Positions 43,434 to 60,795 of a stretch of DNA of 64,000 bases are shown here, one piece after another. Both the position numbers and the translations under genes were made by a program. Below the pieces are notes generated by a model that saw only the letters and a list, made by a program, of their open reading frames with translations, did not search any database and had not been told where the DNA came from. This DNA comes from a virus (taxonomy: Duplodnaviria; Heunggongvirae; Uroviricota; Caudoviricetes), in IMG/VR virus record IMGVR_UViG_3300032318_002198; one strand, written 5' to 3'. Position 1 is the stretch's first letter. Each line of letters begins with the position of its first letter.

Positions 43434-43500
43434 ATAGTAAAGCACATTGGGCTGGTCGTAAACTCGTCGTTGGACTTTAAGACTTGGTGTGCTTTACTAT
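43434..43500 (+). ncRNA. CACATT/GTGTG stem RNA family, copy 1
   Basis: ATAGTAAAGCACATT...GGTGTGCTTTACTAT. Confidence 0.6.
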
Positions 43501-43553
43501 ACACATTCTCATTTCCGCCCCTGACGCGGTCAAAACGCATAGCGGAGAGTGTG
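43501..43553 (+). ncRNA. CACATT/AGTGTG stem RNA family, copy 2
   Basis: ACACATTCTC...GAGAGTGTGT with inner CCGC/GCGG. Confidence 0.55.
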
Positions 43554-43564
43554 TTAACAAATTT

Positions 43565-43651
43565 GGGAGTTGCCCCGGTCGGCGGTCTGTAAAACCGTTC
43601 CTGAAAGATCGGAAGTCAAGGTGTGTGGAGCGTTACCATCAACTCCCACCA
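43565..43651 (+). tRNA. tRNA-Tyr(GTA)
   Basis: GGGAGTT/AACTCCC, GCGGT-CTGTAAA-ACCGT, long variable arm, CCA. Confidence 0.8.
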
Positions 43652-43657
43652 AATTAT

Positions 43658-43736
43658 CCGAGTATAGGCTAGTCAGGTTTAAGTCGTCTGCTTTGGGAGC
43701 AGAAAATCGGGAGTTCGAATCTCTCTACTCGGACCA
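43658..43736 (+). tRNA. tRNA-Pro(TGG)
   Basis: TCTGC-TTTGGGA-GCAGA, CCA. Confidence 0.92.
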
Positions 43737-43742
43737 TTTTTA

Positions 43743-43818
43743 GGAGCAGTAACATAGCGGCTAATGTATCTCCCTGTCTAGGAGAATATCGTGGGTTCGA
43801 GTCCCATCTGCTTCGCCA
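43743..43818 (+). tRNA. tRNA-Asp(GTC)
   Basis: TCTCC-CTGTCTA-GGAGA, CCA. Confidence 0.9.
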
Positions 43819-43824
43819 ATTTTT

Positions 43825-43889
43825 AGGATGCTTACAGCAAACTTTTATACATCAAACTTGTAATTTGAAACGTAAAAAAGCATCCTGTT
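43825..43889 (+). ncRNA. CAGCAA anticodon-stem-loop RNA, copy 1 (loop CT-TGT-AA)
   Basis: AGGATGCT/AGCATCCT closing stem, TACAGCAA, TCAAA/TTTGA hairpin. Confidence 0.7.
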
Positions 43890-43896
43890 GTATTAT

Positions 43897-43970
43897 AGAT
43901 CGCAAGCATTAAGGTGATGCAGTAGGCTCTTAACCTACAGAACACGGTCCAATACCGTGGCGTTCTACCA
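43897..43970 (+). tRNA. tRNA-Lys(CTT)
   Basis: GTAGG-CTCTTAA-CCTAC, CCA. Confidence 0.85.
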
Positions 43971-43978
43971 AATAATAA

Positions 43979-44054
43979 CTCGGATTGGGATAATAGGAAG
44001 TCCACTACGTTTGGGGCGTAGAAGGTGCAGGTTCGAAGCCTGTGTCCGAGACCC
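43979..44054 (+). tRNA. tRNA-Pro(TGG), second copy, ends ACCC
   Basis: CTCGGAT/GTCCGAG, CTACG-TTTGGGG-CGTAG. Confidence 0.8.
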
Positions 44055-44107
44055 TTGAGTCGATGTCAAGACTCGAACTTGTATAAATAAGAACACAGGA
44101 GGCATCT

Positions 44108-44758
44108 ATGTTCTATACAATATACAAGATAACAAATCAGATCAATGGCAAGTTCTATATAGGAAGTCATAAGACCAAAAATTTGAATGACGGATACATG
44201 GGCTCAGGTAAGTACTTAAAATACGCAAAAGAAAAATATGGTATAACAAATTTTACAAAAGAAATTTTGTTCATATTTGATACTCCTGAGCAAATGTATG
44301 CTAAAGAATCCGAAATAGTAAATGAAGAATTCCTCGCAACAGAAAATACCTATAATCTAAAAGTAGGAGGATTTGGCGGTTTTGATTACATTAACGCTAA
44401 TCCTGAAAAATATCTTACCGAAAAAAGATTATCTGCATTAATGCCACAGTCTGAAAGACTTAGGAGGTATAAAGAAAAATTAGATAATGATCCTAAATTT
44501 AGGGAGGAACAGGCGGGACGTATGAAAATCGCTCGAGAAAAATGGTCTCGTAAATACCCGCAAGGTGTTTGGTTAGGTAGAAAACATAGTAAAGAAACAT
44601 TGGCTAAATTAAAAAATTCTGCGAAAGGTAAAGGTCTCGGAGAAAAAAACTCACAATTTGGTACAATGTGGATTACAGACGGAATAAAAAATAAAAAAAT
44701 TAAAAAAGACAAGTTAGTTCCTGAAGGATGGAAATTAGGGCGTGTTTTAAAATCGTAA
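44108..44758 (+). CDS. GIY-YIG homing endonuclease with NUMOD3-like repeats
   Basis: FYTIYKITNQINGKFYIGSH..YMGSG; HSKETLAKL; TATAAATA and RBS-occluding hairpin at 44062-44106. Confidence 0.9.
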   Translation: MFYTIYKITNQINGKFYIGSHKTKNLNDGYMGSGKYLKYAKEKYGITNFTKEILFIFDTPEQMYAKESEIVNEEFLATENTYNLKVGGFGGFDYINANPEKYLTEKRLSALMPQSERLRRYKEKLDNDPKFREEQAGRMKIAREKWSRKYPQGVWLGRKHSKETLAKLKNSAKGKGLGEKNSQFGTMWITDGIKNKKIKKDKLVPEGWKLGRVLKS

Positions 44759-44761
44759 AAT

Positions 44762-44852
44762 TCACCGTAGGTATGGTGCCCCGGAACAGCGCGCAGCCGG
44801 TGAGGTTCGAGTCCTCTAGGTAAGTCAGGCTCGACTCCTGAACGGTGAGCCC
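44762..44852 (+). ncRNA. tRNA-like RNA with two T-arms
   Basis: TCACCGT/ACGGTGA acceptor-like stem; GAGG-TTCGAGT-CCTC and CAGG-CTCGACT-CCTG. Confidence 0.5.
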
Positions 44853-44938
44853 ATATTGAAGCACATTCTACCCATCTGTGGCACGGAACGGAGTCGTCAC
44901 AGAATGGAGAACAGACCTGTTTGAGTGTGTTTCAATAT
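44853..44938 (+). ncRNA. CACATT/AGTGTG stem RNA family, copy 3
   Basis: ATATTGAAGCACATT...AGTGTGTTTCAATAT. Confidence 0.6.
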
Positions 44939-44947
44939 GGCTAGACG

Positions 44948-45091
44948 ATAGTTTTGAGTCCCACCCAACCTAGCATGAGGGCTCACTTATGCGACTACAA
45001 CAGAGTGGTTGAACAGTGGTATCTGACTTGACTATCGAGACAATCCATCGAGGCCTACAATAGGGTAGGATAAGTGGGCTGCCAGAACTAT
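44948..45091 (+). ncRNA. unidentified structured RNA
   Basis: ATAGTTTT/AGAACTAT and GCTCACTTAT/ATAAGTGGGC nested stems. Confidence 0.4.
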
Positions 45092-45094
45092 ATT

Positions 45095-45129
45095 GGGGGA
45101 TAGGGACGCTGGGCGTTAACTGGTCTTGA
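45095..45129 (+). pseudogene. 5' half of tRNA-Ser(TGA), broken after the anticodon
   Basis: GGGGGATAGGGACGCTGGGCGTTAACTGGTCTTGA parallels 45741-45775. Confidence 0.85.
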
Positions 45130-45157
45130 CTTGTATAAATACAAGTAGGAGAAATAA

Positions 45158-45739
45158 ATGTATACTTGTAAATATTGTGGTAGAATTACAGAATCAGTAA
45201 ATTCAAATAGTAATCATCAGATTAGGTGTTCTTCAAATTCTGAAAGGTCTGTACAGAGGTCTGCAACCGGAAGACCTCTTGGTACTAAGGTCCTATCGTT
45301 AGTTGGAAAAAAATGGGGTGCAGCAATCAATGGTCATACTATCGAAACTAAACAGCGTTTATCAGTGATTGCAAAAGAACGGAATCTTGGAGGTTATGTA
45401 CAAGGGTCCGGAAGAGGCAAAAAGGGTTGGTACAAAGGATTCTTTTGTGATAGTAGTTGGGAACTTGCTTACGTTGTTTACTGTTTAGAACACAATATAG
45501 ACATTAAACGAAATACAGAGAAGCGACAATATATCTGGCAAGGAGTAGTTAAAAACTACCTACCAGATTTTATAGTTGAAGGAACTTTAACAGAAGTTAA
45601 AGGATATAAGACAGAACAATGGTTGGCAAAGTTAAAAGCAAATCCGGATGTTCGAGTTTTATACGAAAAAGACTTAGAACCTGTACTTGAATATGTTAAA
45701 GGCAAGTACGGAAAAGACTTCATAAATCTTTACGAATAA
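45158..45739 (+). CDS. PD-(D/E)XK (TnsA-like) homing endonuclease
   Basis: Zn-finger CKYC; DSSWEL...YLPDF...EVKGY. Confidence 0.75.
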   Translation: MYTCKYCGRITESVNSNSNHQIRCSSNSERSVQRSATGRPLGTKVLSLVGKKWGAAINGHTIETKQRLSVIAKERNLGGYVQGSGRGKKGWYKGFFCDSSWELAYVVYCLEHNIDIKRNTEKRQYIWQGVVKNYLPDFIVEGTLTEVKGYKTEQWLAKLKANPDVRVLYEKDLEPVLEYVKGKYGKDFINLYE

Positions 45740-45740
45740 C

Positions 45741-45827
45741 GGGGGATAGGGGGCTTGGAGCCTAACTGGTCTTGAAAACCAGCCCACTTAGGGATAGGTG
45801 ATTGTTCGATTCAATTATCCTCCGCCA
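45741..45827 (+). tRNA. tRNA-Ser(TGA)
   Basis: CTGGT-CTTGAAA-ACCAG, long variable arm, GCCA. Confidence 0.88.
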
Positions 45828-45886
45828 AATACTTTGACTTTACTGTTTAAGATAAGCATAATTATATTATACATATAGGAAAAATT

Positions 45887-46438
45887 ATGCTTGAAAATAA
45901 ACACAGTAAATTAATGAAAGAAGTAGTATGTAAATTCCATCCAGAATTTGTTAAAAGTGCCGATCTAAGAGATTATGGTACAAGGTACCCGGAAATTTTT
46001 AATATCGAACGTCTTGTAGAAGAAAGCCTAGCAGCAACTGGAGGCTATAATTTTGTTGACGAAGCTGGTAGAGATTTTGACGATACTGACAATAGCGATA
46101 GCAAAACAACCACTGTCGTGAACAATGACAAAGAGGGTTCAAGCAAAGTCTTCATTGTTAGCAATGTACAAACAAAGATAGGAAGCCTGAGAATTACATG
46201 CTTTAATCCTTTTAGTGATAAGGTAGATTACTTTTATGTACCGTCAGATCAGCGTGTTGTGCTGCAAGAAAATGATGGCAGTAAATACAGAGAACAGACA
46301 GGACATTGCAAGAGAATTAGAACGGTTTGGAGTGAGAAAACTGATTACTACAATAAGTTAGAAAACTTCAGAGTCGGAGATTTTGTTACTCTAGCAACAA
46401 GTAAAGATAAACAGAATATTGACACTCACCACGAATAA
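45887..46438 (+). CDS. hypothetical protein with own sigma70-like promoter
   Basis: ORF; TTGACT...CATAAT upstream. Confidence 0.65.
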   Translation: MLENKHSKLMKEVVCKFHPEFVKSADLRDYGTRYPEIFNIERLVEESLAATGGYNFVDEAGRDFDDTDNSDSKTTTVVNNDKEGSSKVFIVSNVQTKIGSLRITCFNPFSDKVDYFYVPSDQRVVLQENDGSKYREQTGHCKRIRTVWSEKTDYYNKLENFRVGDFVTLATSKDKQNIDTHHE

Positions 46439-46453
46439 ATATATAATATATAT

Positions 46454-46566
46454 TCGACCGTGAGTGGAATTGGCAGACCTCCGAAATTCCTATTATAGGG
46501 ATAAGGGACGGGATACACGACTTAGTCAAAGTATCTTTGTAGGTTCGAAACCTACCGGTCGGACCC
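46454..46566 (+). tRNA. tRNA-Leu-like RNA with aberrant enlarged anticodon arm (no readable anticodon)
   Basis: TCGACCG/CGGTCGG, GGAATTGGCAGAC D-loop, GTAGG-TTCGAAA-CCTAC T-arm, long variable arm. Confidence 0.5.
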
Positions 46567-46593
46567 ATTTAGATCGATAAGTAAATATATATT

Positions 46594-46683
46594 GGAACGG
46601 TCCCATAATGGTATTGGAGAGGATTGCTAATCCTTCGAGTTACGAAAGTAGCTTTCTGAGTTCGAGTCTCAGTCGTTCCGCCA
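46594..46683 (+). tRNA. tRNA-Ser(GCT)
   Basis: GAGGA-TTGCTAA-TCCTT, long variable arm, GCCA. Confidence 0.9.
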
Positions 46684-46691
46684 AACAATTT

Positions 46692-46722
46692 GCGGGTATG
46701 ATGTAAAGGTAACCTGAAACCT
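46692..46722 (+). pseudogene. 5' half of split tRNA-Gly
   Basis: GCGGGTA acceptor strand pairs with TACCCGC at 47262-47268. Confidence 0.85.
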
Positions 46723-46759
46723 ACGGTAAAGTATAAATACTAGTAGGAGATAGGTTACC

Positions 46760-47152
46760 ATGAAAACATATAACTGCGGACATTGCGGAATAGAATGTAA
46801 TTGGGCATATCAAGGCAACAATAAGTTTTGTAGTGTTCGATGTGCTCAAACATTTAGATCTTTAGAGCATAAGAAAAAATTCTTTTCTGGATTGTTAGAA
46901 AAACGAATAGATAGACCAACTGCTAGAAAATATCTAGCAGAGGCAAGAGGTTATAAGTGTGAGGTATGTAGCGTAAGTGATTGGCAAGGCAAGCCTATTA
47001 CTTTACACGTTGATCGTATAAACGGAGATCCGTCAAACGATCGCCCAGATAATTTAAGATTGATCTGCCCTAACTGTCACAGTCAAACCGAATTTCTTGG
47101 TGGTGCTAATAAAGGTAGAGGACGCGGTTCATTAGGAATCGCAAAGTATTAA
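46760..47152 (+). CDS. HNH endonuclease
   Basis: CEVC...LHVDRINGDPSND...NLRLICPNCHSQT; Arg at the usual first His position. Confidence 0.85.
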   Translation: MKTYNCGHCGIECNWAYQGNNKFCSVRCAQTFRSLEHKKKFFSGLLEKRIDRPTARKYLAEARGYKCEVCSVSDWQGKPITLHVDRINGDPSNDRPDNLRLICPNCHSQTEFLGGANKGRGRGSLGIAKY

Positions 47153-47154
47153 AT

Positions 47155-47230
47155 GCGGCTGTAGCTCAGTTGGTAGAGTACTTGCTTGCCAAGCAAGACG
47201 TCACGAGTTCGAACCTCGTTAGCCGCTCCA
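47155..47230 (+). tRNA. tRNA-Gly(GCC)
   Basis: CTTGC-TTGCCAA-GCAAG, TCCA. Confidence 0.95.
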
Positions 47231-47232
47231 AA

Positions 47233-47272
47233 CAAGGTGGGAGGAGGATTCACATTCTCCTTACCCGCTCCA
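47233..47272 (+). pseudogene. 3' half of split tRNA-Gly
   Basis: CAAGGT...T-arm-like GGAGGA/TTCTCC, TACCCGC-TCCA. Confidence 0.8.
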
Positions 47273-47278
47273 AATAAT

Positions 47279-47352
47279 GTCTCTCAAGCATTAAAGTGAT
47301 GTATCAGTCTCCAAAACTGAAGAACGCGGGGCGGTACCGTGGAGAGATGCCA
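47279..47352 (+). tRNA. tRNA-Trp(CCA)
   Basis: TCAGT-CTCCAAA-ACTGA, GCCA. Confidence 0.88.
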
Positions 47353-47368
47353 AAATTATAAATAGAAG

Positions 47369-47845
47369 ATGCGTATCAACGAAATATATTCACCTACTGT
47401 AGTATCCAAGTCAAAAATCCCAAATGCTGGGAATGGTCTGTTTGCAACGGAAAATATTCCAGCAGGAACATTGTTTGTTATAAACCCAATTATCACTATT
47501 AGTGAAAGTGATTGGAATAAGATTAAAGATACAGTTTTTGTAAAAAGAATGAGACTCAGTTGGACAAACAATGAAAAAGTTTTACCTGTTGGAAACATCG
47601 AGTATAAACTTTCTCCTGAAGATATTCCAGTATTTAGGTCAACTGATAGATTCAAAAATGGCGTATTTGTTAGTCCATTTTTACTTGTAAATCATAGTGA
47701 TGATCCAAATAGTGAACAAGTTATCGATGTTGCTCATAGAATGGTAGGATTAAGAGCCGTTAAGTTTATTGAGCAGGGTGAGGAAATAACAAAACGCTAC
47801 GACGGATTTGTTTCCAAGAAATCAGCATCGTTAGATTTTGATTAA
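47369..47845 (+). CDS. SET-domain lysine methyltransferase
   Basis: SKIPNAGNGLFA, VNHSDDPN, GEEITKRY. Confidence 0.85.
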   Translation: MRINEIYSPTVVSKSKIPNAGNGLFATENIPAGTLFVINPIITISESDWNKIKDTVFVKRMRLSWTNNEKVLPVGNIEYKLSPEDIPVFRSTDRFKNGVFVSPFLLVNHSDDPNSEQVIDVAHRMVGLRAVKFIEQGEEITKRYDGFVSKKSASLDFD

Positions 47846-47894
47846 AATAGATGGGCCAAAGGCTCGAGTCCTCGAAAGGACGCAAAAGTTTTTT

Positions 47895-47958
47895 AGGATG
47901 CTTACAGCAAACTTTATACATCAAACTGATAATTTGAAACGTAAAAAAGCATCCTGTT
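47895..47958 (+). ncRNA. CAGCAA anticodon-stem-loop RNA, copy 2 (loop CT-GAT-AA)
   Basis: Matches copy 1 except the anticodon triplet and one linker T. Confidence 0.7.
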
Positions 47959-47968
47959 GTATTTCTGT

Positions 47969-48043
47969 TGGGGGTAAATCGATTGGAGCAGATACTACTC
48001 TTTGAAAGTAGGTGACCAGGATCGTAACCTGGACCCCTAGCCC
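47969..48043 (+). tRNA. tRNA-Gln(TTG), ends GCCC
   Basis: CTACT-CTTTGAA-AGTAG. Confidence 0.82.
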
Positions 48044-48047
48044 GATA

Positions 48048-49058: not shown

Positions 49059-49064
49059 ATTTTT

Positions 49065-49127
49065 AGGATGCTTCCAGCAAATTATGCAATTGCCTTCTAA
49101 GCAAACCAAGCAAAAAAGCATCCTGTT
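49065..49127 (+). ncRNA. CAGCAA anticodon-stem-loop RNA, copy 3 (loop CT-TCT-AA)
   Basis: AGGATGCT/AGCATCCT, TCCAGCAA, TTGC/GCAA hairpin. Confidence 0.65.
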
Positions 49128-49136
49128 TTATAATAT

Positions 49137-49554: not shown

Positions 49555-49629
49555 AGGACTATGGCGTAGAGGTAGCGCAGCGGACTTTTAATCCGTTAGG
49601 CCCGGGTTCGATCCCCGGTGGTCCTACCA
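49555..49629 (+). tRNA. tRNA-Lys(TTT)
   Basis: GCGGA-CTTTTAA-TCCGT, ACCA. Confidence 0.92.
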
Positions 49630-49647
49630 TATATAATAAATAAAGTT

Positions 49648-50106
49648 ATGAGAGTACGTGAATTTATTGTTGAATTAGCAGACAAGCCTGCTCAATTTGA
49701 ATGGGCATGTCGAACACCTGATGTATGTGTAGCAGAATCGCCGGAGTTGAATTTAACTTTATATATCAACAGGGGTATAAGTCGTGAGCAAAAAGACAAT
49801 GCGATATTTATAGATTTTACTGTAAACGATGAACACAAACTAACCGGCAAAGGTAATGCTATACAAATACTATCAACAGTGTTAGCTATGATGAGTGCAA
49901 TATTACCTAAATTTATAAAAAGAACCGATGATTTTGTCACGTTTGCTGCTGAAAAATCTGAGCACAGTAGAGTAAGTTTATATAGTAGAGCAGTTCCAAA
50001 AATTACAAGTATATTAAAAACAATAGATTATGCTTGGAAATATTATCCAACATATGAACCCAACAGTGGACTACAAAAATACACTTGGGAACGAGAGATG
50101 GGTTAA
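49648..50106 (+). CDS. hypothetical late protein, MRxREF family
   Basis: MRVREFIVE start after TAAATA. Confidence 0.65.
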   Translation: MRVREFIVELADKPAQFEWACRTPDVCVAESPELNLTLYINRGISREQKDNAIFIDFTVNDEHKLTGKGNAIQILSTVLAMMSAILPKFIKRTDDFVTFAAEKSEHSRVSLYSRAVPKITSILKTIDYAWKYYPTYEPNSGLQKYTWEREMG

Positions 50107-50114
50107 GACCTACC

Positions 50115-50193
50115 ATATAAAAACACATTCTAACTAATAAGGGTTGTAAACCTGGGTTAGCTAACAGCTAGCACCCTGAGTGTGTTTCTATAT
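50115..50193 (+). ncRNA. CACATT/AGTGTG stem RNA family, copy 4
   Basis: ATATAAAAACACATT...AGTGTGTTTCTATAT. Confidence 0.6.
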
Positions 50194-50270
50194 GGTCAAG
50201 TATCTTAAGAGGAAGTAGAGCCTCCCTCATAAGGAGGAATGTGGAGCTTCGAGTGCTCTCTTGACCACCA
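50194..50270 (+). tRNA. tRNA-Met(CAT), elongator type
   Basis: CCTCC-CTCATAA-GGAGG, ACCA. Confidence 0.8.
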
Positions 50271-53197: not shown

Positions 53198-53480
53198 TGC
53201 GTGGGAAGCTTAAGTGGTTATAAGCACTGGTCTCATTCTTAAGAGTGCATCAGATGTAGAAATACGCTGTATGAATGGTGTCAAATTCGGTGAAACCTAA
53301 AGTAGAAATACTATGGCAATGCCGAGCCAAGCCTCAGTAGAAATACTGTTGAAGGTGTAGAGACTAGACGGCACCCCCCTAAGGTAGAAATACTACGGAG
53401 AAGGCATAGTCCAAGGAGTAAGGAAACTTACACAAACTTGAAACCAGAGACAGCGGGTTCAAATCCCGCACCACGCACCA
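53198..53480 (+). tRNA. tRNA-CAT (probably Ile2) split by a group I intron; exons 53198-53236 and 53441-53480
   Basis: Joined exons give TGCGTGG/CCACGCA and CTGGT-CTCATAA-ACCAG. Confidence 0.88.
53237..53440 (+). ncRNA. group I self-splicing intron (IC3-like, 204 nt, no ORF)
   Basis: P1 CAT/GTG with U-G at the splice site; P AAATTCGGTGAA, Q AATGCCGAGCCAAG, R GTAGAGACTAGACGG, S GGCATAGTCC; terminal G; GAAA tetraloops. Confidence 0.9.
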
Positions 53481-53487
53481 ACTAATT

Positions 53488-54114
53488 ATGTCTAAATGGA
53501 ACTACACTGAATCTGTTCCTGACACACTCTACGTTGCCTGTTCTGGTGGTGTAGATAGTGTTGCCGCAGCAGCAATTCTCGGTGAATGGCGTGATGTAAC
53601 TCTGTTGCATTTTAGTCACACTGATCACGCTCATGTTCAAGAACTCGAAACAGTGAGTGAATTGGCATTTCAATTGAAAGTGCCTTTAATCACCAGTTAT
53701 CAAACTCAGGCTCAAACTACAGGGAATAAAGAAGCACAATGGCGCGATGCTAGATATGCGTGGTTTCATAGTTTAGATCTACCGGTAGCAACTGGCCATA
53801 CTCTCGAAGATTGCGTTGAGTGGTATCTAATGACTTGTTTGCGAGGACGTGGGGAGTATATGCCACATCGTAATCGTAATGTGTTTCGTCCATTCTTACT
53901 TACTGAAAAGTATCATTTGTACAAATATTGTAAACATAGAAATTTGACTTGGTGGGAAGATCCTGGAAATTATAGTTCAGAATTTAGCCTACGCAGTCGT
54001 GTTAGACAAAATTTGGTTCCGGCAGCACTTGAGTGTGAGCCAGGATTGAAAAATATGGTCAAGCGTAAATTAGTTGAGAAAATTAGTAGAGATAAAATGC
54101 TAGTTGACAATTAA
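53488..54114 (+). CDS. tilS: tRNA(Ile)-lysidine synthetase (N-terminal catalytic domain only)
   Basis: SGGVDS PP-loop, RDARY, TGHTLED, RPFL, WWEDPGN, RSRVRQ. Confidence 0.88.
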   Translation: MSKWNYTESVPDTLYVACSGGVDSVAAAAILGEWRDVTLLHFSHTDHAHVQELETVSELAFQLKVPLITSYQTQAQTTGNKEAQWRDARYAWFHSLDLPVATGHTLEDCVEWYLMTCLRGRGEYMPHRNRNVFRPFLLTEKYHLYKYCKHRNLTWWEDPGNYSSEFSLRSRVRQNLVPAALECEPGLKNMVKRKLVEKISRDKMLVDN

Positions 54115-54183: not shown

Positions 54184-54275
54184 GCCCCGATGGTGAAATT
54201 TGGTAGACACAAGGGACTTAAAATCCCTCGCTTTCCGAAAGGAGCGTGCCGGTTCGAGTCCGGCTCGGGGCACCA
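54184..54275 (+). tRNA. tRNA-Leu(TAA)
   Basis: AGGGA-CTTAAAA-TCCCT, long variable arm. Confidence 0.95.
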
Positions 54276-54363
54276 TATTTTAGCAGTTCGCCTCGACCTG
54301 CCTGGCCAGCATAAGGAAGAATAAGCACGGATAAGGAATCGGCCCGTGCCTGCTAAAATATGG
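54273..54363 (+). ncRNA. unidentified stem-closed RNA
   Basis: CCATATTTTAGCAG/CTGCTAAAATATGG 14-bp closing stem. Confidence 0.5.
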
Positions 54364-54374
54364 TAAAGACATAA

Positions 54375-54528
54375 ACATCAGTAGTATATTTGTTAGTTCA
54401 ATATTTGGAACACTTAGTAGGAAAGCCTGGACATTTGAAACTAGGATAACGACCTAGAAGTAGTCGCAGTGTAGCAAGTACGAACAGAGGATTAAAGGTG
54501 TAAATCCCTTACAGATATACTACTAATG
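54375..54528 (+). ncRNA. unidentified stem-closed RNA
   Basis: CATCAGTAGTATATTTG/CAGATATACTACTAATG closing stem with inner hairpins. Confidence 0.5.
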
Positions 54529-54545
54529 GATATGGTAAAGAATTT

Positions 54546-54640
54546 GGGTGTATTGGCAGAAATAGGTTATGCATCTCGGAGTACACAGTGATCAACAGTC
54601 GAACGAGAAGATCCGGGTGTGAATCCTGGGGCATCCACCA
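54546..54640 (+). tRNA. tRNA-like RNA with 25-nt anticodon loop
   Basis: D-arm, TCTCG/CGAGA stem enclosing 25 nt, T-arm, ATCCACCA end. Confidence 0.55.
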
Positions 54641-54809
54641 AGTTTGCATTGTATTTTAAGAACTAAGATAGCGACGAGTATGGTACGTAACAGAAACATC
54701 GCCGTAAGTCAGGGACTGGTAGGTTATGCAACCCTGTAAATCAGCCTACTTGAAATACTACGATAATTTTGTTGCGGGAACTTAGAGAACATTAAAATAA
54801 GGACAATTT

Positions 54810-54941: not shown

Positions 54942-55019
54942 AGGTACAATATGCGGTAAGCGTATGAAGCGAGAAACTTGGTAAGAGTGTAAGCGACTTG
55001 AAATAACAAGGTGCCTACC

Positions 55020-55115
55020 ATATTTCAGCACATTAACTGGCCACTAGGTAATAGTCAACATGAAGCCGAGCAAGGATGCAGAGTCTCGGATTAAAGACTA
55101 AGTGTTCTGAAATAT
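55020..55115 (+). ncRNA. CACATT/AGTG stem RNA family, copy 5
   Basis: ATATTTCAGCACATT...AAGTGTTCTGAAATAT. Confidence 0.55.
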
Positions 55116-55121
55116 AGTTTT

Positions 55122-55357
55122 CATTAGTTATATAATTCAGGAAAATGGCTGTGTCCACCAGCCTAGTACCTAATGGCATTCAGGGGAGAGCCGGCAAATG
55201 CTACTGTTATAAATAGTAGACTAACCTGAAGCATTATGATAAGATACAACGAATCGTGGGAGTCGCGTCCTGGGCAATAAGTGTATCCGAGAAGAAATTT
55301 ATTCTGGTAAACGGTAGTAGGTCTATTACTATCCATAACTGAATTGTATAACTAATG
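55122..55357 (+). ncRNA. unidentified ~235-nt structured RNA
   Basis: 19-bp closing stem CATTAGTTATATAATTCAG/CTGAATTGTATAACTAATG with G-U pairs. Confidence 0.55.
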
Positions 55358-55389: not shown

Positions 55390-55474
55390 GCCCTCTTGGC
55401 GGAATTGGTAGACGCACCAGGTTTAGGTCCTGGCGCCGAAAGGTGTGAGAGTTCGAGTCTCTTGGAGGGCACCA
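55390..55474 (+). tRNA. tRNA-Leu(TAG)
   Basis: CCAGG-TTTAGGT-CCTGG, long variable arm. Confidence 0.95.
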
Positions 55475-55564
55475 TATTAAAACACATTGAGTCGCGCTTA
55501 GGCGGGTGGAAGACTGGTGAACTTCCTCTAAACGGAATCCCAACCTACCAGTGTGTTTCAATAT
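55474..55564 (+). ncRNA. CACATT/AGTGTG stem RNA family, copy 6
   Basis: ATATTAAAACACATT...AGTGTGTTTCAATAT. Confidence 0.6.
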
Positions 55565-55640
55565 GGGGATGGGAATGCAAGAGTGTTCACCTGTTTTGCA
55601 AGCAGGAATCAGATCGGGGCGGTACCGATATTCTCCACCA
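55565..55640 (+). tRNA. tRNA-Ala(TGC)
   Basis: CCTGT-TTTGCAA-GCAGG, G3:U70. Confidence 0.82.
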
Positions 55641-55696
55641 TGTGATACTGTTAATCAATAAAAGATAAATACTTTTATACGTATGATTAACAGCAA

Positions 55697-56332
55697 ATGA
55701 ATTATCAAAAAATTTATAACAATCTAATAGAACGTGCTAAAAATAGAGTCATTTTAGGATATTATGAGAAACATCATATTATTCCACGATGTATAGGGGG
55801 TAGCGATGATTCTAGTAATTTAATTAAATTAACTCCAGAAGAGCATTATATTGCTCATCAACTTTTAGTAAAGATTTATCCAAACAATCATGCCTTGGCA
55901 AAAGCAGCAGCAATGATGATTCCTGATAGACCAACAAATAAAATGTACGGGTGGATAAGGAAACGATTTTCTATTGCTAAATCTATTGAACAATCCGGAT
56001 CTGGAAATTCTCAGTTTGGATCAAAATGGGCGCATAATCCTTTAACTAAAGAAAATAAAAAAATTAAAGGAAACTTAGCTGAAGGGTGGATATACGGAAA
56101 GTATAAAGACCCGCTATTAAAAATAGATAAAATGTCTGTTCTAAAAGAAAAAAGAAAAGAAAATAGAAAAAAACAAATTGACATTTATAGAGAATACTAT
56201 AAAATATATAAAGAAGTAGAATTTGATAAATTTATAGAAATAACAGGGTATAAAAATTCTAAACAGAATTTGGTTCAACGTTTTGCTGTTCTGTTAGAAG
56301 AGTTTATACCTCAAAACGGTAAAAAAAGATAA
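55697..56332 (+). CDS. HNH homing endonuclease (paralogue of 5600)
   Basis: EKHHIIPRCIGGSDD..NLIKLTPEEHYIAHQLL; upstream hairpin CTGTTAATCA/TGATTAACAG. Confidence 0.88.
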   Translation: MNYQKIYNNLIERAKNRVILGYYEKHHIIPRCIGGSDDSSNLIKLTPEEHYIAHQLLVKIYPNNHALAKAAAMMIPDRPTNKMYGWIRKRFSIAKSIEQSGSGNSQFGSKWAHNPLTKENKKIKGNLAEGWIYGKYKDPLLKIDKMSVLKEKRKENRKKQIDIYREYYKIYKEVEFDKFIEITGYKNSKQNLVQRFAVLLEEFIPQNGKKR

Positions 56333-56337
56333 TCAAT

Positions 56338-56422
56338 TCCGCGGTACTCAAGTGGTACGAGGCCTGGCTGTTAACCAGAGACGCCGAAAGGCACGTAGGT
56401 TCGATCCCTACCCGCGGAGCCA
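56338..56422 (+). tRNA. tRNA-Asn(GTT) with long variable arm
   Basis: CTGG-CTGTTAA-CCAG; variable hairpin GCC-GAAA-GGC. Confidence 0.85.
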
Positions 56423-56448
56423 AAATATAACTTCTAACCGTCATTAAT

Positions 56449-56520
56449 ACCCCCGCCAATGGATTGGCAGCAGGCCTTCTAAGCCAGTTTGTGTGGGTTC
56501 GAATCCTACCGGGGGTGCCA
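56449..56520 (+). tRNA. tRNA-Arg(TCT)
   Basis: GGC-CTTCTAA-GCC, GCCA. Confidence 0.85.
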
Positions 56521-56571
56521 AATCTCAGGCCTTTGTTGACGGCCTCAATGTGATAAATTGTCAACAACCTT

Positions 56572-56648
56572 AGGTCTTTAGATTAGAGGCTAAATCATCT
56601 CTGTGACATAGAGAAGACCGTTTGGTTCGATTCCAACAAGACCTACCA
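56572..56648 (+). tRNA. tRNA-Val(GAC)
   Basis: TCTCT-GTGACAT-AGAGA, ACCA. Confidence 0.8.
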
Positions 56649-56727
56649 AATATTATATCTTCTTGGTTAAATCGAATATCACAAGTTTGATTCTTTTTAA
56701 GATCGTCAAAATACTAAATATTGTATT

Positions 56728-57405
56728 ATGTTGATCAAAGATTTATTAGAAGCATTGATATCACCGGAGATTAAAAAACTTCCCAGATTACCTCAGGAAT
56801 ATGATTTGCCGTCATTAAAAAAATTAAGAGATACAGGATCAAATCGAGAAACAGGTCGATACAGTAAAGGTGATGAGGGCAATGATCCTCATGAATATAA
56901 ATTAGCCAATTGGTTACCGACACGATTAAAACATGATGCCAAATATCATTGGATTAAATCTATCCGTCCATATATGGGAGATAATCCGTATATTCCTATA
57001 TATTATAATATACACTATGAAAAAGATAAAGACGGTAAGACTAGAATGAAATATAACATGGAAAAGTTAGTTAGTCTTTTTAGGTTAAGTCAAGATGAGA
57101 GACAAGCACTTGCTGCAAAGACTTTTAATAATGACGAATTTTATAATATGCCCGATATAGGACCTAAACAATTTGCTAACATTTTATCAGATGTAGTATA
57201 CGATATACATTTAGGCAGGTCACCTCGATACGAAATTGATTCGGATCTCAAACAAGCATTGGTATTAATAAACAATCTTTTAGAGAGAGGTTTTACAGAT
57301 GATTTACATGGTGCAAATATTATGGTACGGAATACCAGCATGGGTTATCATTTAGTTATAACAGATCCTGTGCAAGATGATGGAGATAGTATAATAGAAA
57401 AATGA
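56728..57405 (+). CDS. atypical protein-kinase-like protein
   Basis: MEKL hinge, DDLHGANIMVR catalytic loop, LVITDP. Confidence 0.65.
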   Translation: MLIKDLLEALISPEIKKLPRLPQEYDLPSLKKLRDTGSNRETGRYSKGDEGNDPHEYKLANWLPTRLKHDAKYHWIKSIRPYMGDNPYIPIYYNIHYEKDKDGKTRMKYNMEKLVSLFRLSQDERQALAAKTFNNDEFYNMPDIGPKQFANILSDVVYDIHLGRSPRYEIDSDLKQALVLINNLLERGFTDDLHGANIMVRNTSMGYHLVITDPVQDDGDSIIEK

Positions 57406-57816
57406 AAAACTTATACTCATTACATTCAAATCCAGAGCAATTGTTTGGATATGATCAAGCAAATTATCGTGTACCTGAAATGGCATATCAATTGGCTAAA
57501 GAAAAACCTGAATTAAGAAAACAGTTAGAACCGGTTATAATGAAAGATCCTGAATGGGCATATCGTTATGCTAGAAATATTCTCAAAAGGCCCTGGTGCT
57601 GGGCCTGATCGCCCTGTCGCTCACCTTCCTGGGCGGCTACGGCGGCATGGTCTCGCTGGCGCAGATGTCGGTGGCCGGCATGGCCGGCTACGGCGTGGCC
57701 ATCTTCGGCGCCAGCAGCACGCCTATCAGCCTGGGCTGGCCTTGGTGGCTGGCGGTCCTCTTCGGTGGAACCTGTATCAAGAATTTGAACATAGTTATCG
57801 GGGCCGGATCACATGA
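57402..57816 (+). pseudogene. 23-aa repeat protein interrupted by foreign DNA
   Basis: Family N-terminus and C-terminus (WNLYQEFEH, compare WWGFYQEFKH) now in different frames. Confidence 0.75.
57590..57768 (+). other. ~180-bp GC-rich bacterial fragment (branched-chain amino-acid ABC permease, LivM-like)
   Basis: Abrupt GC rise; translates ALVLGLIALSLTFLGGYGGMVSLAQMSVAGMAGYGVA, like LivM ...L.GY.G.VSLG...F.G.GAY. Confidence 0.8.
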
Positions 57817-59207
57817 GAGCTAGAGAATTTTTACTTGAATATAGGAGAGATATAACCGCCAATAATTTCGGTGATGCTCTATTCAAAACCCTAGATAAAA
57901 CTCCGAACCATGCAGTACCGGATGAATTATATTCATTTGGCGTAATTTCCGACATGGCCCTTCGATTTACGAATTACGAACATGATATTAAAAAGGCAGT
58001 CGTCTATTTTTCGTTTGGCAAATGGTATACTATAACCACCGCTGAATCAGCAATGGCGGCATTACAAGAACTAAAACCAAAAGCAATTGATGCTATACTT
58101 TCAATAATCGAAGAAGCAGATCCTACACCGAATAAAATGTACACACAATGGCTTATAAGAATGTGGATAAATGGCAACGGTGATACTTTATTAGAAGACT
58201 TAAATCGCAACCAGATTCTTACTGCATATCATAGAGCCAAATCAAAAAATTTAATTAAGCCAGAAGATAAAGATATTAATAAATTCAAAAATTATCGTGA
58301 CTTTGAAAAAACCATCAGAAGTAAGTATGATATAAACGTCTTATTGGGATTGGAAGCATCAGCATTTGAAAAAGGTAATTATAAGGTTTTATTGGATAAT
58401 GATGATGTAATTGTTGTTCAATTATTGGATTTAAAAGCCAGTGAATATTGGGGTGAAAAATATAATCCCAATAAAGAACGTAGAGCCGAATGGTGTACAT
58501 TACAACCTGATAACTTTAACTACTATACAAACCGAGGTCCACTATATGTAATTAAACCAAAAAAAGAATTGTTCCCTGGCGAAAAATATCAATTCCATCT
58601 TCCATCTGGTCAGTTTATGGACATCTATGACCACCCGGCTAACTTTTACTATATAGTAAATCACAAATATCCAGAACTAAAGGATCTATTTATTAAGCTC
58701 GAACCGGGTTTAACAAATACCATAATGTTTGCAGACGATAATTTAGTGATAGGTATTTGGAAAGGTATAATGGAAATAGCATATGATCAAGCAATTGAGG
58801 ATATCGAACGATTTGAGACTATGGAAAATGAGCGTTGGTACCCACATAAGAATTATAATGAATCAAAAAAAACATTTTTACAAGACATAAAAGAAATAAG
58901 TAATGCAAGTGCTGAATATATAAAAAAACTAACTCTAGAGTATGTTGATCGGTTAAACGAAGAAATGAATGACATAGGGAATTTTTTCGAACAAACAAAC
59001 TTAACTCATTTAGTCAACATTTTGGCAATGACTGTTAAATACGATACGACGCTACTCACCATAGAAGAATTTACTCCATTTGAAGAACTACCTGACTATA
59101 TACAATCTAGCATATTAATAACCAAAGGTCTCCCGCCATCACGAAATAAAAGAATAATTAAAGTCGGTTCGTGGAGAGTAGTAGATGTCGGTAGCCAGAA
59201 CTCATAA
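57813..59207 (+). CDS. hypothetical late protein, MRxREF family, PcfJ-like motif
   Basis: MRAREFLLEY; EWCTL...YYTNRGPLY; paralogue of 14740. Confidence 0.65.
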   Translation: MRAREFLLEYRRDITANNFGDALFKTLDKTPNHAVPDELYSFGVISDMALRFTNYEHDIKKAVVYFSFGKWYTITTAESAMAALQELKPKAIDAILSIIEEADPTPNKMYTQWLIRMWINGNGDTLLEDLNRNQILTAYHRAKSKNLIKPEDKDINKFKNYRDFEKTIRSKYDINVLLGLEASAFEKGNYKVLLDNDDVIVVQLLDLKASEYWGEKYNPNKERRAEWCTLQPDNFNYYTNRGPLYVIKPKKELFPGEKYQFHLPSGQFMDIYDHPANFYYIVNHKYPELKDLFIKLEPGLTNTIMFADDNLVIGIWKGIMEIAYDQAIEDIERFETMENERWYPHKNYNESKKTFLQDIKEISNASAEYIKKLTLEYVDRLNEEMNDIGNFFEQTNLTHLVNILAMTVKYDTTLLTIEEFTPFEELPDYIQSSILITKGLPPSRNKRIIKVGSWRVVDVGSQNS

Positions 59208-59209
59208 AA

Positions 59210-59824
59210 TTAAGGTATTATTTCCCAATTAACACTAGGGTCTAAAGTTTCGCCTTTTTGAGGATATACTTCTAATAGATACATATGTAGTTTTTCAAAA
59301 AAATCTTTATATGGTGGTATAAAATGATTTCTTTGAATTTCTATACTTACATATCCCGGTTGACCGTTGTGCTCTGTAGCAGAGACCAATTGATCTACTA
59401 ACGACTGAAATTCGGTCTCGTTAAAAATTAACGATAATTGTTTCGTTTGTTTAAATATTGTTTTAGCATGTTCTGGAGTAATTTGATCACTCTTCCCCCA
59501 ATATGCTAGTATAGAATTTTTTTGAGGTAAAAACCTTAGATAAAAACCGCCTTCCCAATCAGTATCGATAGTATCATCAACTCGATAACGATCGAGTTCG
59601 GGAGAGGAAAATACATTCGAAGATGGTTTTGAATTATTCGGTTTAGGTGAAGTAATGGCATGAGGTAATGCTTTGCTCAATTTACGATTTGCTATATCTT
59701 TGATACGTTTATCATCTGCTGCTTTTGCAGCCTGTTGTTGAGCTAATTTTTCTCTACGTTCAGCTTCACGACGACGATCACGCTCGCCTTTGCTGATTTC
59801 ATTGATAATTTCTTTTATGTACAT
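59210..59824 (-). CDS. hypothetical late protein, MxIxEI family
   Basis: MYIKEIINE; TAAATA upstream on minus strand. Confidence 0.65.
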   Translation of the reverse strand: MYIKEIINEISKGERDRRREAERREKLAQQQAAKAADDKRIKDIANRKLSKALPHAITSPKPNNSKPSSNVFSSPELDRYRVDDTIDTDWEGGFYLRFLPQKNSILAYWGKSDQITPEHAKTIFKQTKQLSLIFNETEFQSLVDQLVSATEHNGQPGYVSIEIQRNHFIPPYKDFFEKLHMYLLEVYPQKGETLDPSVNWEIIP

Positions 59825-60123
59825 AATAATATATTTATGCCTGACATAATAACAAATACATGTTACACTACTTACATAAATTAAGTTGTTCTTTAAGTAT
59901 TAAGTTTGTAGATAAGAAATGACTTGGTCCACAAACTTAATAAATAAAAACTGTTGACAGCAGAAAATAATTTTGCTACAATATGTACATGTTAAGAAAT
60001 TAACAAAACAGAAAAGTTGTTCGCTGTAAAGAAAACACTTCTGCTAGTTCTGAAAATACACGGTGATGATTATAATCCGTGAGCATGGACCAGTCAATCA
60101 ACGTTCTTTAAAATTGATATAAC

Positions 60124-60216
60124 AATGTTCTTAACATTGTTGAATACATTAAAACAAACCTGATCAGTTTGTCGTAAATATTTTGACATTTATAGTGTAT
60201 TCAACAATGTTAAGAA
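60124..60216 (+). ncRNA. stem-closed RNA related to CACATT family
   Basis: TTCTTAACATTGTTGAATACA/TGTATTCAACAATGTTAAGAA 21-bp stem. Confidence 0.5.
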
Positions 60217-60304
60217 TTCAAGGGGTGCTTAAACTCCTGTAACGTATGGTTCGCCCAGCGTTACAAAGAATAACTGTGGTGACACAGCCAAAGCAGTAGT
60301 CCTC

Positions 60305-60410
60305 CACTATACTAAAGCACAAAAACAGTTCTTCTCTATATAAGTCCTTGTTGCATTAGAGTATTGAGTAATACTACAGAAATTCTGTTGTAGTGTGGTT
60401 TAGTATAGTG
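60305..60410 (+). ncRNA. CACATT/AGTGTG stem RNA family, copy 7
   Basis: CACTATACTAAAGCACA...AGTGTGGTTTAGTATAGTG. Confidence 0.55.
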
Positions 60411-60545
60411 AAAATCGAGTGAGGCGATCACATAGAGCAACGATGCATAAGAGATTAAGGTTACGTGATCATACCGTTCTTTCTGGTACGTGCATCTGCC
60501 GTCTGGGACAAACTCGACCCAGTGTTAGTTACGATAACATCAACG

Positions 60546-60618
60546 CTATACTAAAGCACATTGACAGCGCGGTCGTATTCAGTTACGGTGCCAAGCGGGA
60601 TAGTGTGTTTTATTATAG
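60546..60618 (+). ncRNA. CACATT/AGTGTG stem RNA family, copy 8
   Basis: CTATACTAAAGCACATT...AGTGTGTTTTATTATAG. Confidence 0.6.
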
Positions 60619-60722
60619 TGAAAACTATTGACGTTGGAAAGACAACTATGGCTCATGATTTATTCTGTCAACGATACAAGGGCTGGGCTGTTCCTTGTAT
60701 GTCGGACGATACGTAACCGACA

Positions 60723-60795
60723 CCATATCGAAGCGCATTTGGATTGAAGAGATTTTGCGGTTTCCTTGGTTGCTAACAAGTGTGTTTCAATATGG
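60723..60795 (+). ncRNA. CACATT/AGTGTG stem RNA family, copy 9
   Basis: CCATATCGAAGCGCATT...AGTGTGTTTCAATATGG. Confidence 0.6.

What the first reader, a model, noticed from the sequence alone, without database searches (positions are those of the whole stretch)
43434..60795. Dispersed RNA family closed by a conserved CACATT/AGTGTG helix
Seen: at least nine elements (43434, 43501, 44853, 50115, 55020, 55474, 60305, 60546, 60723) share A(A/G)(A/G)CACATT...AGTGTG(T/C)TT inside a 10-17 bp AT-rich stem with compensatory changes. The enclosed 30-70 nt are unrelated between copies. Several begin at a CCA and end at the GG of the next tRNA, so tRNA processing would release them. Inference: a conserved protein-binding or processing handle carrying variable cargo (guide, antisense or decoy sequences).
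Basis: partly seen in the sequence, partly recalled or inferred. Interest (0 to 1): 0.75.

Follow-up and report, generated by a model that had tools for sequence, protein, structure and literature searches.

The report
Swappable small RNAs between phage tRNAs
The window's tRNA region holds eleven small RNA genes of an apparently undescribed, phage-only family: one conserved 18-base-pair helix starts on the CCA end of the RNA upstream and encloses a different insert in each copy, and near-identical phages have exchanged these inserts; what the RNAs do is unknown.

Summary
All nine flagged hairpins exist on the + (tRNA) strand, and I found two more (60133-60211 and 54272-54364).

It is an 18-bp helix, ACCAUAUUGAARCACAUU paired with AGUGUGYUUCAAUAUGGU.

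The exact 3' arm occurs in at least 120 uncultured viral contigs. These are mostly T4-like phages with large tRNA arrays, and they hold 263 elements with 167 insert classes.

- **RNA-level selection.** Read on the tRNA strand the helix has 430 G-U pairs and 92 mismatches. Read on the other strand it has 54 and 468. Nine of 18 pairs show double compensatory changes.
- **Position.** About 40% of elements start exactly on the CCA of a called tRNA. Many others follow a short helix plus one base plus CCA.
- **Insert exchange.** Phages with about 100% identical flanks and helix carry unrelated inserts, for example 100 nt against 45 nt.

Rfam 15, cultured phages (including T4) and the literature searches gave no match. 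Of five complete carrier genomes, none encodes TROVE-type Ro60, RNase III, RtcB or a CCA-adding enzyme, and one has the Ro60-like DUF2828. The guide or antisense idea finds no support.

Function and partner are unknown. This scan noted the same family today in four other genomes.

The parts
43434..43500 (+). Diverged member: 15-bp closing helix (AUAGUAAAGCACAUU paired with GGUGUGCUUUACUAU), 37-nt insert
   Evidence: Fold, z -4.1. Model R1, 23.7 bits on + against 13.9 on -.
43501..43554 (+). Weak member: only the inner core is kept (ACACAUUCUC paired with GAGAGUGUGU, 10 bp). It abuts the previous element.
   Evidence: Fold, z -3.6. R1 gives only 10.8 bits, E about 2.
44850..44941 (+). Canonical member with a fully paired 18-bp helix and a 56-nt insert with two hairpins. 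Its CCA follows a tRNA-like piece with a T-arm (about 44766-44853).
   Evidence: Fold, z -6.4. R1, 46.9 bits. Sequence read.
50112..50196 (+). Member with the UAAAAA/UUUCUA mid-stem variant (A.C mismatch) and a 49-nt insert. Its last GG is the first two bases of tRNA-Met (50194). In relatives this variant sits directly after tRNA-Lys-UUU; here ORF 49618-50106 lies in between.
   Evidence: (54.6 bits).
54272..54364 (+). New relative that keeps only the outer stem (CCAUAUUUUAGCAG paired with CUGCUAAAAUAUGG). It starts on the CCA of tRNA-Leu-UAA.
   Evidence: R1, 22.7 bits. Sequence read. tRNA position.
55017..55118 (+). Diverged member (15 of 17 pairs), 66-nt insert
   Evidence: 30.3 bits.
55471..55567 (+). 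Canonical member that starts on the CCA of tRNA-Leu-UAG, with a 61-nt insert. The orthologous site in L116 has the same helix but a 40-nt, largely different insert.
   Evidence: 50.4 bits.
60133..60211 (+). New member with 17 of 17 pairs (core AUACAUU paired with AGUGUAU) and a 43-nt insert. It is the first RNA downstream of a sigma-70-like promoter (TTGACA, 17 bases, TACAAT) at about 59955-59985.
   Evidence: 30.7 bits.
60307..60408 (+). Weak member (CACAAA core, 14 of 17 pairs), 68-nt insert
   Evidence: R1 gives only a partial match, 12.4 bits.
60545..60619 (+). Canonical member with a 39-nt insert. The insert is homologous to that of L116:422-496.
   Evidence: 55.2 bits.
60722..60796 (+). 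Canonical member that follows a minihelix plus ACCA, with a 39-nt insert. tRNA-Cys lies 17 nt downstream.
   Evidence: 55.2 bits.

Best explanation
These are genes for a phage-specific family of small RNAs that are transcribed as part of the tRNA operons.

Each RNA is closed by one conserved 18-bp helix, ACCAUAUUGAARCACAUU paired with AGUGUGYUUCAAUAUGGU. The helix begins with the discriminator base and CCA of the tRNA, or tRNA-like minihelix, just upstream. In some copies it ends with the first two G's of the next tRNA.

The enzymes that trim tRNA ends would therefore cut the hairpin out. RNase P would act on the downstream side. A cut or trimming at the CCA would act on the upstream side, possibly after a cut inside the helix. 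The paired ends would keep the released RNA stable.

The helix is the constant scaffold. Its two arms are also the joints at which the enclosed insert is exchanged between phages. The inserts are a fast-turning-over set of small RNA domains, a subset of which mimic tRNA T-arms. They most likely act by binding host or phage proteins, as decoys or aptamers in phage-host conflict.

**Shown here:** the family, its RNA-level selection, its position relative to tRNA ends, and insert exchange.

**Inferred:** the processing route, accumulation of the RNAs, and any binding function.
For: **Spread and specificity**
- The exact 3' arm occurs in at least 120 viral contigs.
- 157 of 161 occurrences have the partner arm 23-135 nt upstream.
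- In 596 Gb of prokaryotic genomes there are only 23 hits. Only 3 of these are hairpins, all on small MAG contigs.

**RNA-level selection**
- Read on the tRNA strand: 430 G-U pairs and 92 mismatches. Read on the opposite strand: 54 and 468.
- 96.3% of cells are paired and 9 of 18 pairs show double changes. No shuffle out of 500 reaches these values. Slid controls give 29-52% paired.
- Model R1 scores higher on the + strand for every window copy.

**Position**
- 234 of 263 elements share the strand of the neighbouring tRNAs.
- 93-110 start on the CCA of a called tRNA and 28-31 end on the GG of the next tRNA.
- Position -1 is A in 69% and position +1 is U in 84%, which extends the helix to 18 bp.
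- Among elements without a called upstream tRNA, 60 of 130 follow a helix plus one base plus CCA. Shuffled sequences give 20.
- In five complete genomes the copies lie only in the tRNA array.

**Inserts**
- There are 167 classes. Several recur in different phages and contexts with unchanged sequence while the helix varies (A4).
- Compensatory changes occur inside one class (A1).
- T-arm-like hairpins occur in 9 classes against 0.19 expected.

**Exchange**
- L105/L079 against L072: flanks and helix are about 100% identical, but the inserts are 100 nt and 45 nt and unrelated.
- At least four further such pairs exist.
- The mid-stem variant UAAAAA/UUUCUA marks the site after tRNA-Lys-UUU, yet that site holds 17 insert classes in 22 copies.
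- The same holds for the window against L116 at the tRNA-Leu-UAG site.
Against: - Discrete RNAs and their ends are therefore not shown.
- No partner protein was identified.
- Taken alone, inserts fold only slightly better than shuffled sequence (mean z -0.35, no strand asymmetry). Many inserts may be weakly constrained.
- Most tRNAs in these arrays are separated by 5-10 nt spacers without any such hairpin. The helix is therefore not needed for tRNA processing as such.
- Two 17-bp arms are short for homologous recombination, so the exchange mechanism is inferred from its products only.
Confidence: 0.5

Rival explanations
1. The helix alone is the functional part. It acts as a clamp or processing stalk that sequesters the ACCA end of the upstream tRNA and is cut by a double-strand-specific nuclease (host RNase III type), as in rRNA operon stems. 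The insert is mostly a tolerated, fast-drifting loop.
For: - The helix is far more conserved than the insert.
- Inserts are hypervariable at orthologous sites.
- Insert-only folding is barely better than chance.
- The helix pairs ACCA with UGGU.
Against: - Most tRNAs in the same arrays need no such stalk.
- Several insert classes are more conserved than the helix around them and recur in unrelated contexts.
- Compensatory changes occur inside inserts.
- T-arm mimics are enriched about 50-fold.
- The tRNA 3' end and the next tRNA's 5' end lie one nucleotide apart on the helix, not the 2-nt stagger that RNase III leaves (geometry read).
- None of five complete carrier genomes encodes RNase III. 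The sequence conservation would then have to fit many host enzymes.
Confidence: 0.25
2. These are Y-RNA-like partners of a Ro60-type ring protein. The conserved helix would be the Ro60 docking site and the insert would tether other factors.
For: - The architecture matches: a conserved terminal helix with a variable interior.
- Some inserts carry T-arm mimics, as YrlA does.
- An earlier scan note reports a Ro60 gene about 6 kb beyond this window.
Against: - No Rfam YrlA or Y_RNA match on any element.
- The GNCGAAN(0-1)G / GGUCCGA motif described in PMC4201824 is absent from the helix.
- None of five complete carrier genomes has TROVE, and only one has DUF2828.
- The Ro60-adjacent RNAs of this genome belong to a different family, the ACAGCAA box.
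Confidence: 0.07
3. These are guide or antisense RNAs. The insert pairs with phage or host transcripts and the helix provides stability.
For: Some inserts keep conserved single-stranded stretches, for example CUAAGAG in the 29-nt class.
Against: - No complementarity above chance between the window's inserts and the 64-kb window.
- Host targets could not be searched because the host is unknown.
Confidence: 0.08
4. This is a DNA-level repeat with no RNA role: a miniature inverted-repeat mobile element, an invertible segment or a recombination site.
For: - 17-bp inverted repeats flank variable DNA.
- Cassette exchange has its breakpoints in the repeats.
- Homing endonuclease genes are frequent nearby.
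Against: - There is a strong strand asymmetry of G-U pairs against A-C mismatches.
- No insert is found in both orientations (0 pairs).
- The elements are confined to the tRNA strand of tRNA arrays.
- Inserts are unrelated to each other, unlike copies of a mobile element.
Confidence: 0.04

Closest known systems
Y RNAs, including bacterial and phage YrlA (Rfam RF02553; Chen et al. 2014, PMC4201824)
   Same: - The 5' and 3' ends pair into a conserved helix.
- The interiors are variable.
- There are several paralogues per genome.
- Some interiors mimic tRNA parts.
- Phage copies lie near tRNA genes.
   Different: - The Ro60-binding motif is absent.
- There is no model match.
- There is no linkage to a Ro60 gene.
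- T-arm mimics, where present, stack on the helix as on an acceptor stem. This is not the YrlA layout.
- Inserts are exchanged as cassettes.
RNase III processing stalks (stems flanking 16S/23S rRNA; phage T7 early-RNA sites)
   Same: A long helix forms from sequences flanking an RNA inside a polycistronic precursor of stable RNAs.
   Different: - The helix sequence is conserved across many phages.
- It encloses small variable RNAs rather than one conserved product.
- The tRNA-end geometry does not fit a single 2-nt staggered cut.
- Cleavage was not tested.
Phage T4 species 1 and 2 RNAs (rnaC, rnaD)
   Same: - They are small stable RNAs of unknown function.
- They are encoded inside a T4-type tRNA cluster, co-transcribed and matured with tRNAs.
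- rnaC carries a T-arm.
   Different: - There is no sequence or model similarity.
- T4 has no shared closing helix and no family of variable inserts.
tRNA-linked small RNAs released by tRNA processing (murine gammaherpesvirus 68 tRNA-like/pre-miRNA units; MALAT1 mascRNA), named from my own knowledge
   Same: A hairpin RNA directly follows a tRNA-type 3' end, so tRNA-end nucleases define its end.
   Different: These are eukaryotic systems with a different downstream pathway. They have no conserved helix that includes the CCA.
Cassette systems with conserved joints: PeSL cassettes of T4-type phages (cited in a scan note); integron attC sites (from my own knowledge)
   Same: Short conserved sequences bracket variable modules that are reshuffled between related genomes.
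   Different: - Here the module is a 23-135 nt non-coding RNA.
- The joints are also the two strands of an RNA helix under RNA-level selection.
- No dedicated recombinase is known.
ACAGCAA-box RNAs (similar to Dictyostelium Class I RNA) in the same arrays
   Same: They are stem-closed small RNAs with variable interiors in the same phage tRNA arrays.
   Different: In that family the helix covaries freely and a single-stranded box is conserved. Here the helix sequence itself is conserved and the box is absent.

Membership tests
YrlA / Y RNA (RF02553, RF00019) | Match to the Rfam covariance model | tested here: not met
   No hit on any element at E up to 1, in the window or in six loci holding 20 elements.
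YrlA / Y RNA (RF02553, RF00019) | Ro60-binding motif GNCGAAN(0-1)G or GGUCCGA near the 5' end | tested here: not met
   The motif is defined in PMC4201824. The 5' arm ACCAUAUUGAARCACAUU lacks it.
YrlA / Y RNA (RF02553, RF00019) | Encoded within a few kb of a Ro60 (TROVE) gene on the same strand | tested here: not met
   None of five complete carrier genomes has TROVE, and one has DUF2828. The window's own genome is reported to have a Ro60 gene beyond the window (not checked here).
YrlA / Y RNA (RF02553, RF00019) | tRNA-like T and D arms in the interior | tested here: inconclusive
   T-arm-like hairpins occur in 9-22 of 167 insert classes. No D-arm was sought. Most classes have neither.
RNase III processing stalk | A continuous double helix of about two turns that RNase III can bind | tested here: inconclusive
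   The helix is 17-18 bp, extended by 1-3 bp in many copies. This is at the lower limit.
RNase III processing stalk | Cleavage with a 2-nt 3' overhang that defines the product ends | not testable with these tools
   The annotated tRNA ends lie one nucleotide apart on the helix. They cannot both be direct RNase III ends. Cleavage elsewhere in the helix remains possible.
T4 species 1/2 RNAs (rnaC/rnaD) | Sequence or structure homology to T4 rnaC/rnaD | tested here: not met
   Model R1 gives no match in the T4 locus L121. The arm pattern is absent from the T4 genome at up to 3 mismatches.
T4 species 1/2 RNAs (rnaC/rnaD) | A non-tRNA gene inside a T4-type tRNA cluster on the tRNA strand | tested here: met
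Miniature inverted-repeat mobile element | Copies are homologous throughout, insert in either orientation, and show no strand-specific pairing signal | tested here: not met
   The interiors are unrelated (167 classes). The elements follow the tRNA strand and show G-U against A-C asymmetry.
Any Rfam 15 family | A model match at or near the gathering score | tested here: not met

The most novel reading that the evidence does not exclude
The helix is a dual-use joint of an RNA cassette system. At the DNA level its two arms serve as homology arms through which co-infecting phages trade small RNA genes. At the RNA level the same arms form the helix that gets the RNA excised from the tRNA precursor and stabilised. 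Phages would thus keep a rapidly renewable library of protein-binding or decoy RNAs for conflicts with host defences, something like an integron for non-coding RNAs.
Probability: 0.25. Interest if true: 0.85.

Novelty: new variant of a known kind. Interest (0 to 1): 0.68.

Why it matters
Phage tRNA arrays are usually read as codon-usage or anti-defence tRNA supplies. This family shows that they also carry a large, structured and fast-exchanging set of non-tRNA RNAs built on one scaffold.

If the RNAs accumulate, they are a new class of phage small RNAs with hundreds of insert types. They would be a natural model for how RNA modules are expressed from tRNA precursors, and a ready-made scaffold for RNA expression.

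The sharp insert replacement between near-identical phages is the kind of pattern seen for genes in arms races. It makes a counter-defence role testable.

The family may also bear on the old question of what the non-tRNA stable RNAs of T4-type tRNA clusters are for.

Tried and rejected
- **Whole genome:** none is held for this window.
- **Cultured phages:** no copy of a full element or of the arms in INPHARED by BLAST. The arm pattern is absent from T4, Pelagibacter phage Mosig, Methylophilales phage Melnitz and marine virus AG-345-F15.
- **Rfam:** nothing on the elements.
- **Literature:** three full-text searches found no description.
- **Partner proteins in five complete carrier genomes:** TROVE 0/5, DUF2828 1/5, RNase III 0/5, RtcB 0/5, CCA-adding enzyme 0/5, PF04308 RNase-H-like 3/5. 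None fits as an obligatory partner.
- **Neighbouring ORFs in the window:** mostly homing endonucleases. The 464-aa ORF 57813-59207 looks like a repeat protein with no RNA link.
- **Antisense targets of the inserts inside the window:** none above chance.
- **Anticodon-stem-loop mimicry:** not enriched, 15 observed against 7.5 expected with a maximum of 16.
- **Inner 7 bp as a borrowed tRNA acceptor stem:** no phage tRNA shares it.
- **DNA inversion of the insert between the arms:** no insert is found in both orientations.
- **Concerted evolution of arms within a genome:** rejected, because arm variants are shared across phages and tied to positions.
- **Promoter or terminator reading of the arms:** no consistent -35/-10 spacing and no U-tract (inspection).

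Full report
**Setting.** The window is AT-rich (about 34% G+C). From about 43.4 kb onward it holds a large tRNA array: 29 tRNAs on the + strand, interspersed with homing-endonuclease genes, a TilS-like gene and long ORF-free stretches. No close relative exists among cultured phages. No whole genome is held for the window.

**The observation.** All nine flagged hairpins are present on the + strand. All fold with the 5' and 3' ends paired. Six of the nine have z-scores of -3.6 to -6.4.

In the best copies the whole helix reads CCAUAUUGAAGCACAUU paired with AGUGUGUUUCAAUAUGG.

A strict scan (core motif plus at least 15 of 17 pairs) finds 8 elements on the + strand. One hundred simulated windows give a mean of 0.09 and a maximum of 2.

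A covariance model built from relatives (R1) recovers the window copies:
- five at 47-55 bits;
- 55017 and a new one at 60133-60211 at about 30 bits;
- 43434 at 24 bits;
- a new relative at 54272-54364 at 23 bits, which keeps only the outer stem and starts on the CCA of tRNA-Leu-UAA;
- 60306 and 43501 only weakly.

Every copy scores higher on the + strand than on the - strand.

**The family elsewhere.** In 157 of 161 occurrences the partner arm lies 23-135 nt upstream.

In 596 Gb of prokaryotic genomes the same 17-mer occurs 23 times. Twenty of these have no partner arm. The three with one lie on small freshwater MAG contigs that look like phage DNA. The element is therefore phage-specific and far above chance.

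The neighbouring genes of the carrier contigs are T4-type: RegA, T4 RNase H, clamp-loader gp62 and dCMP deaminase. The nearest cultured relatives by RegA are Kyanoviridae such as pelagiphage Mosig, methylophage Melnitz and cyanomyophages. These cultured relatives, and T4 itself, lack the arm.

In five complete carrier genomes the copies number one to four and lie only in the tRNA array. The window, with eleven, is an expansion.

**It is selected as RNA, on the tRNA strand.**
- Across 121 sequences (120 loci plus the window) I found 263 distinct elements. In 234 of them the strand with fewer mismatches is the strand of the neighbouring tRNAs.
- Read on the tRNA strand the 17 pairs give 3898 Watson-Crick pairs, 430 G-U pairs and 92 mismatches. 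Read on the other strand they give 54 G-U pairs and 468 mismatches.
- On an alignment of 41 elements, 96.3% of cells pair and 9 of 18 pairs show changes on both sides. No shuffle out of 500 reaches these values, and slid registers pair at only 29-52%.
- The middle of the helix covaries freely, for example UUGAA/UUCAA to UUAUA/UAUAA, AGACA/UUUCU and UUUCA/UGAAA.
- The inner seven pairs (RCACAUU with AGUGUGY) and the outer AUAU are nearly fixed. A U-G wobble at pair 16 is kept in 72% of distinct helices, although C-G also occurs.
- No insert is found in both orientations, so the arms do not act as an inversion switch.

**Relation to tRNA ends.**
- Between 93 and 110 elements start exactly on the CCA of a called tRNA. 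Between 28 and 31 end with the GG that begins the next tRNA.
- The base before the CCA is A in 69% and the base after the final GG is U in 84%. The helix is thus 18 bp and pairs ACCA with UGGU.
- Among the 130 elements without a called upstream tRNA, 60 follow a hairpin plus one base plus CCA, a minihelix-like end. Shuffled sequence gives 20.
- All tRNAs of these arrays encode CCA (97%).
- Most tRNAs are separated by only 5-10 nt. The hairpin is therefore an inserted unit, not the general way of separating tRNAs.

**The inserts.**
- The 263 inserts fall into 167 classes at my threshold.
- Several classes recur in different phages and after different tRNAs with almost unchanged sequence, while the helix around them varies. 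An example is the 29-nt class (A4).
- One 90-nt class shows clear compensatory changes in an internal hairpin (A1).
- T-arm-like hairpins (5 bp plus a UUCNA loop) occur in 9 classes against 0.19 expected, often stacked directly on the 3' arm.
- Anticodon-loop mimics are not enriched.
- Taken alone, the inserts fold only slightly better than shuffled sequence (mean z -0.35). Many may be weakly constrained.
- I found no complementarity above chance between the window's inserts and the window.

**Insert exchange.** The mid-stem variant UAAAAA/UUUCUA marks the site after tRNA-Lys-UUU in many phages, yet 22 such sites hold 17 insert classes. After tRNA-Glu-UUC, 29 sites hold 23 classes.

In pairs of contigs whose 90-nt flanks are 93-100% identical, and whose helices are identical or nearly so, the inserts can be unrelated and of different length. 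In the clearest case, L105/L079 against L072, identity is complete up to the last base of the 5' arm and resumes at the first base of the 3' arm. In between, the inserts are 100 nt and 45 nt (A7).

The window shows the same against L116 at the tRNA-Leu-UAG site. The arms therefore behave as the joints of a cassette.

**What it is not.**
- Rfam 15 has no match on the elements at E up to 1.
- Three literature searches found no description.
- The helix lacks the Ro60-binding motif of Y RNAs.
- None of five complete carrier genomes encodes TROVE-type Ro60, RNase III, RtcB or a CCA-adding enzyme. One has the Ro60-like DUF2828, and three have a PF04308 RNase-H-like protein.
- The second RNA family in these arrays, the ACAGCAA-box family, is distinct. 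It gives sub-threshold hits to the Dictyostelium Class I model, and earlier scan notes link it to Ro60-like genes.

**Reading.** The best-supported account is a scaffold-and-cassette family of small RNAs expressed from the tRNA precursor.
- Shown: the family, RNA-level selection on the helix, its anchoring on tRNA-type CCA ends, and cassette-like insert exchange.
- Inferred: that tRNA-end nucleases release a stable hairpin, and that the inserts act by binding proteins.
- Main rival: the helix alone matters, as a clamp or processing stalk, and the insert is a tolerated loop.
- Less likely readings: Ro60 partnership, antisense action, and a purely DNA-level repeat.

**Earlier notes of this scan.** Four notes written today on other genomes describe the same family and reach similar verdicts: real, phage-only, absent from Rfam, function unknown. 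I reached the same points independently. I add the strand-asymmetry numbers, the position-linked arm variants, the breakpoint-resolved insert exchange, the T-arm enrichment and the negative partner searches.

Noticed in passing
window 53198-53484: A tRNA with anticodon CAU is split just after the anticodon by a group I intron of about 205 nt (Rfam RF00028, 62 bits). The uninterrupted homologue is tRNA-Met in L150:4766-4843. ARAGORN does not call the split gene. A TilS-like PP-loop gene (53488-54114) follows directly, so this may be a tRNA-Ile2 that needs lysidine.
   Followed up: partly
window 55140-55345; L116:820-1070: An ORF-free stretch of about 210 nt is 92% identical between the window and L116 and has no Rfam match. 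It is probably another structured RNA.
   Followed up: no
window 43822-43890, about 49061-49130, about 62672-62740: These are copies of a second stem-closed RNA family with an ACAGCAA(A/U) box. The same family gives sub-threshold hits to the Dictyostelium Class I RNA model in related loci. It is the subject of other notes of this scan.
   Followed up: no
L121 (phage T4) 2054-2172, minus strand: T4 species 2 RNA (rnaD) contains CACAGCAGAAAC near its 3' end, which resembles the ACAGCAA box of the second family. T4 rnaC carries a canonical T-arm.
   Followed up: no
window 55565-55650: This is a pseudo-tRNA. It is homologous to tRNA-Ala of L116:1590-1666, but its T-arm is degenerate and ARAGORN does not call it.
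   Followed up: partly
window 54378-54540 and 54546-54642: There is a further long-stem element (AGUAGUAUAU paired with AUAUACUACU around about 130 nt), followed by a tRNA-like unit that ends in CCA. The flank AUAUGGUAAAGAAUUUGG recurs after several different elements here and in L042, L048, L102, L107 and L117.
   Followed up: no
window about 59955-59985: A strong sigma-70-like promoter (TTGACA, 17 bases, TACAAT) lies upstream of the four-element cluster at 60133-60796. A similar promoter and leader occur in L116 at about 762-800.
   Followed up: no
window 12425-12499: ARAGORN calls a tRNA with anticodon CUA (labelled Pyl) far from the main array. It may be an amber suppressor.
   Followed up: no
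L007:13913-14302: A T4-like carrier contig encodes a tmRNA (beta-proteobacterial type, 137 bits).
   Followed up: no
L116:551-640: A unit with a T-arm, a stem-loop and a D-arm gives a weak YrlA hit (24.6 bits). It lies just upstream of a member of the present family.
   Followed up: no
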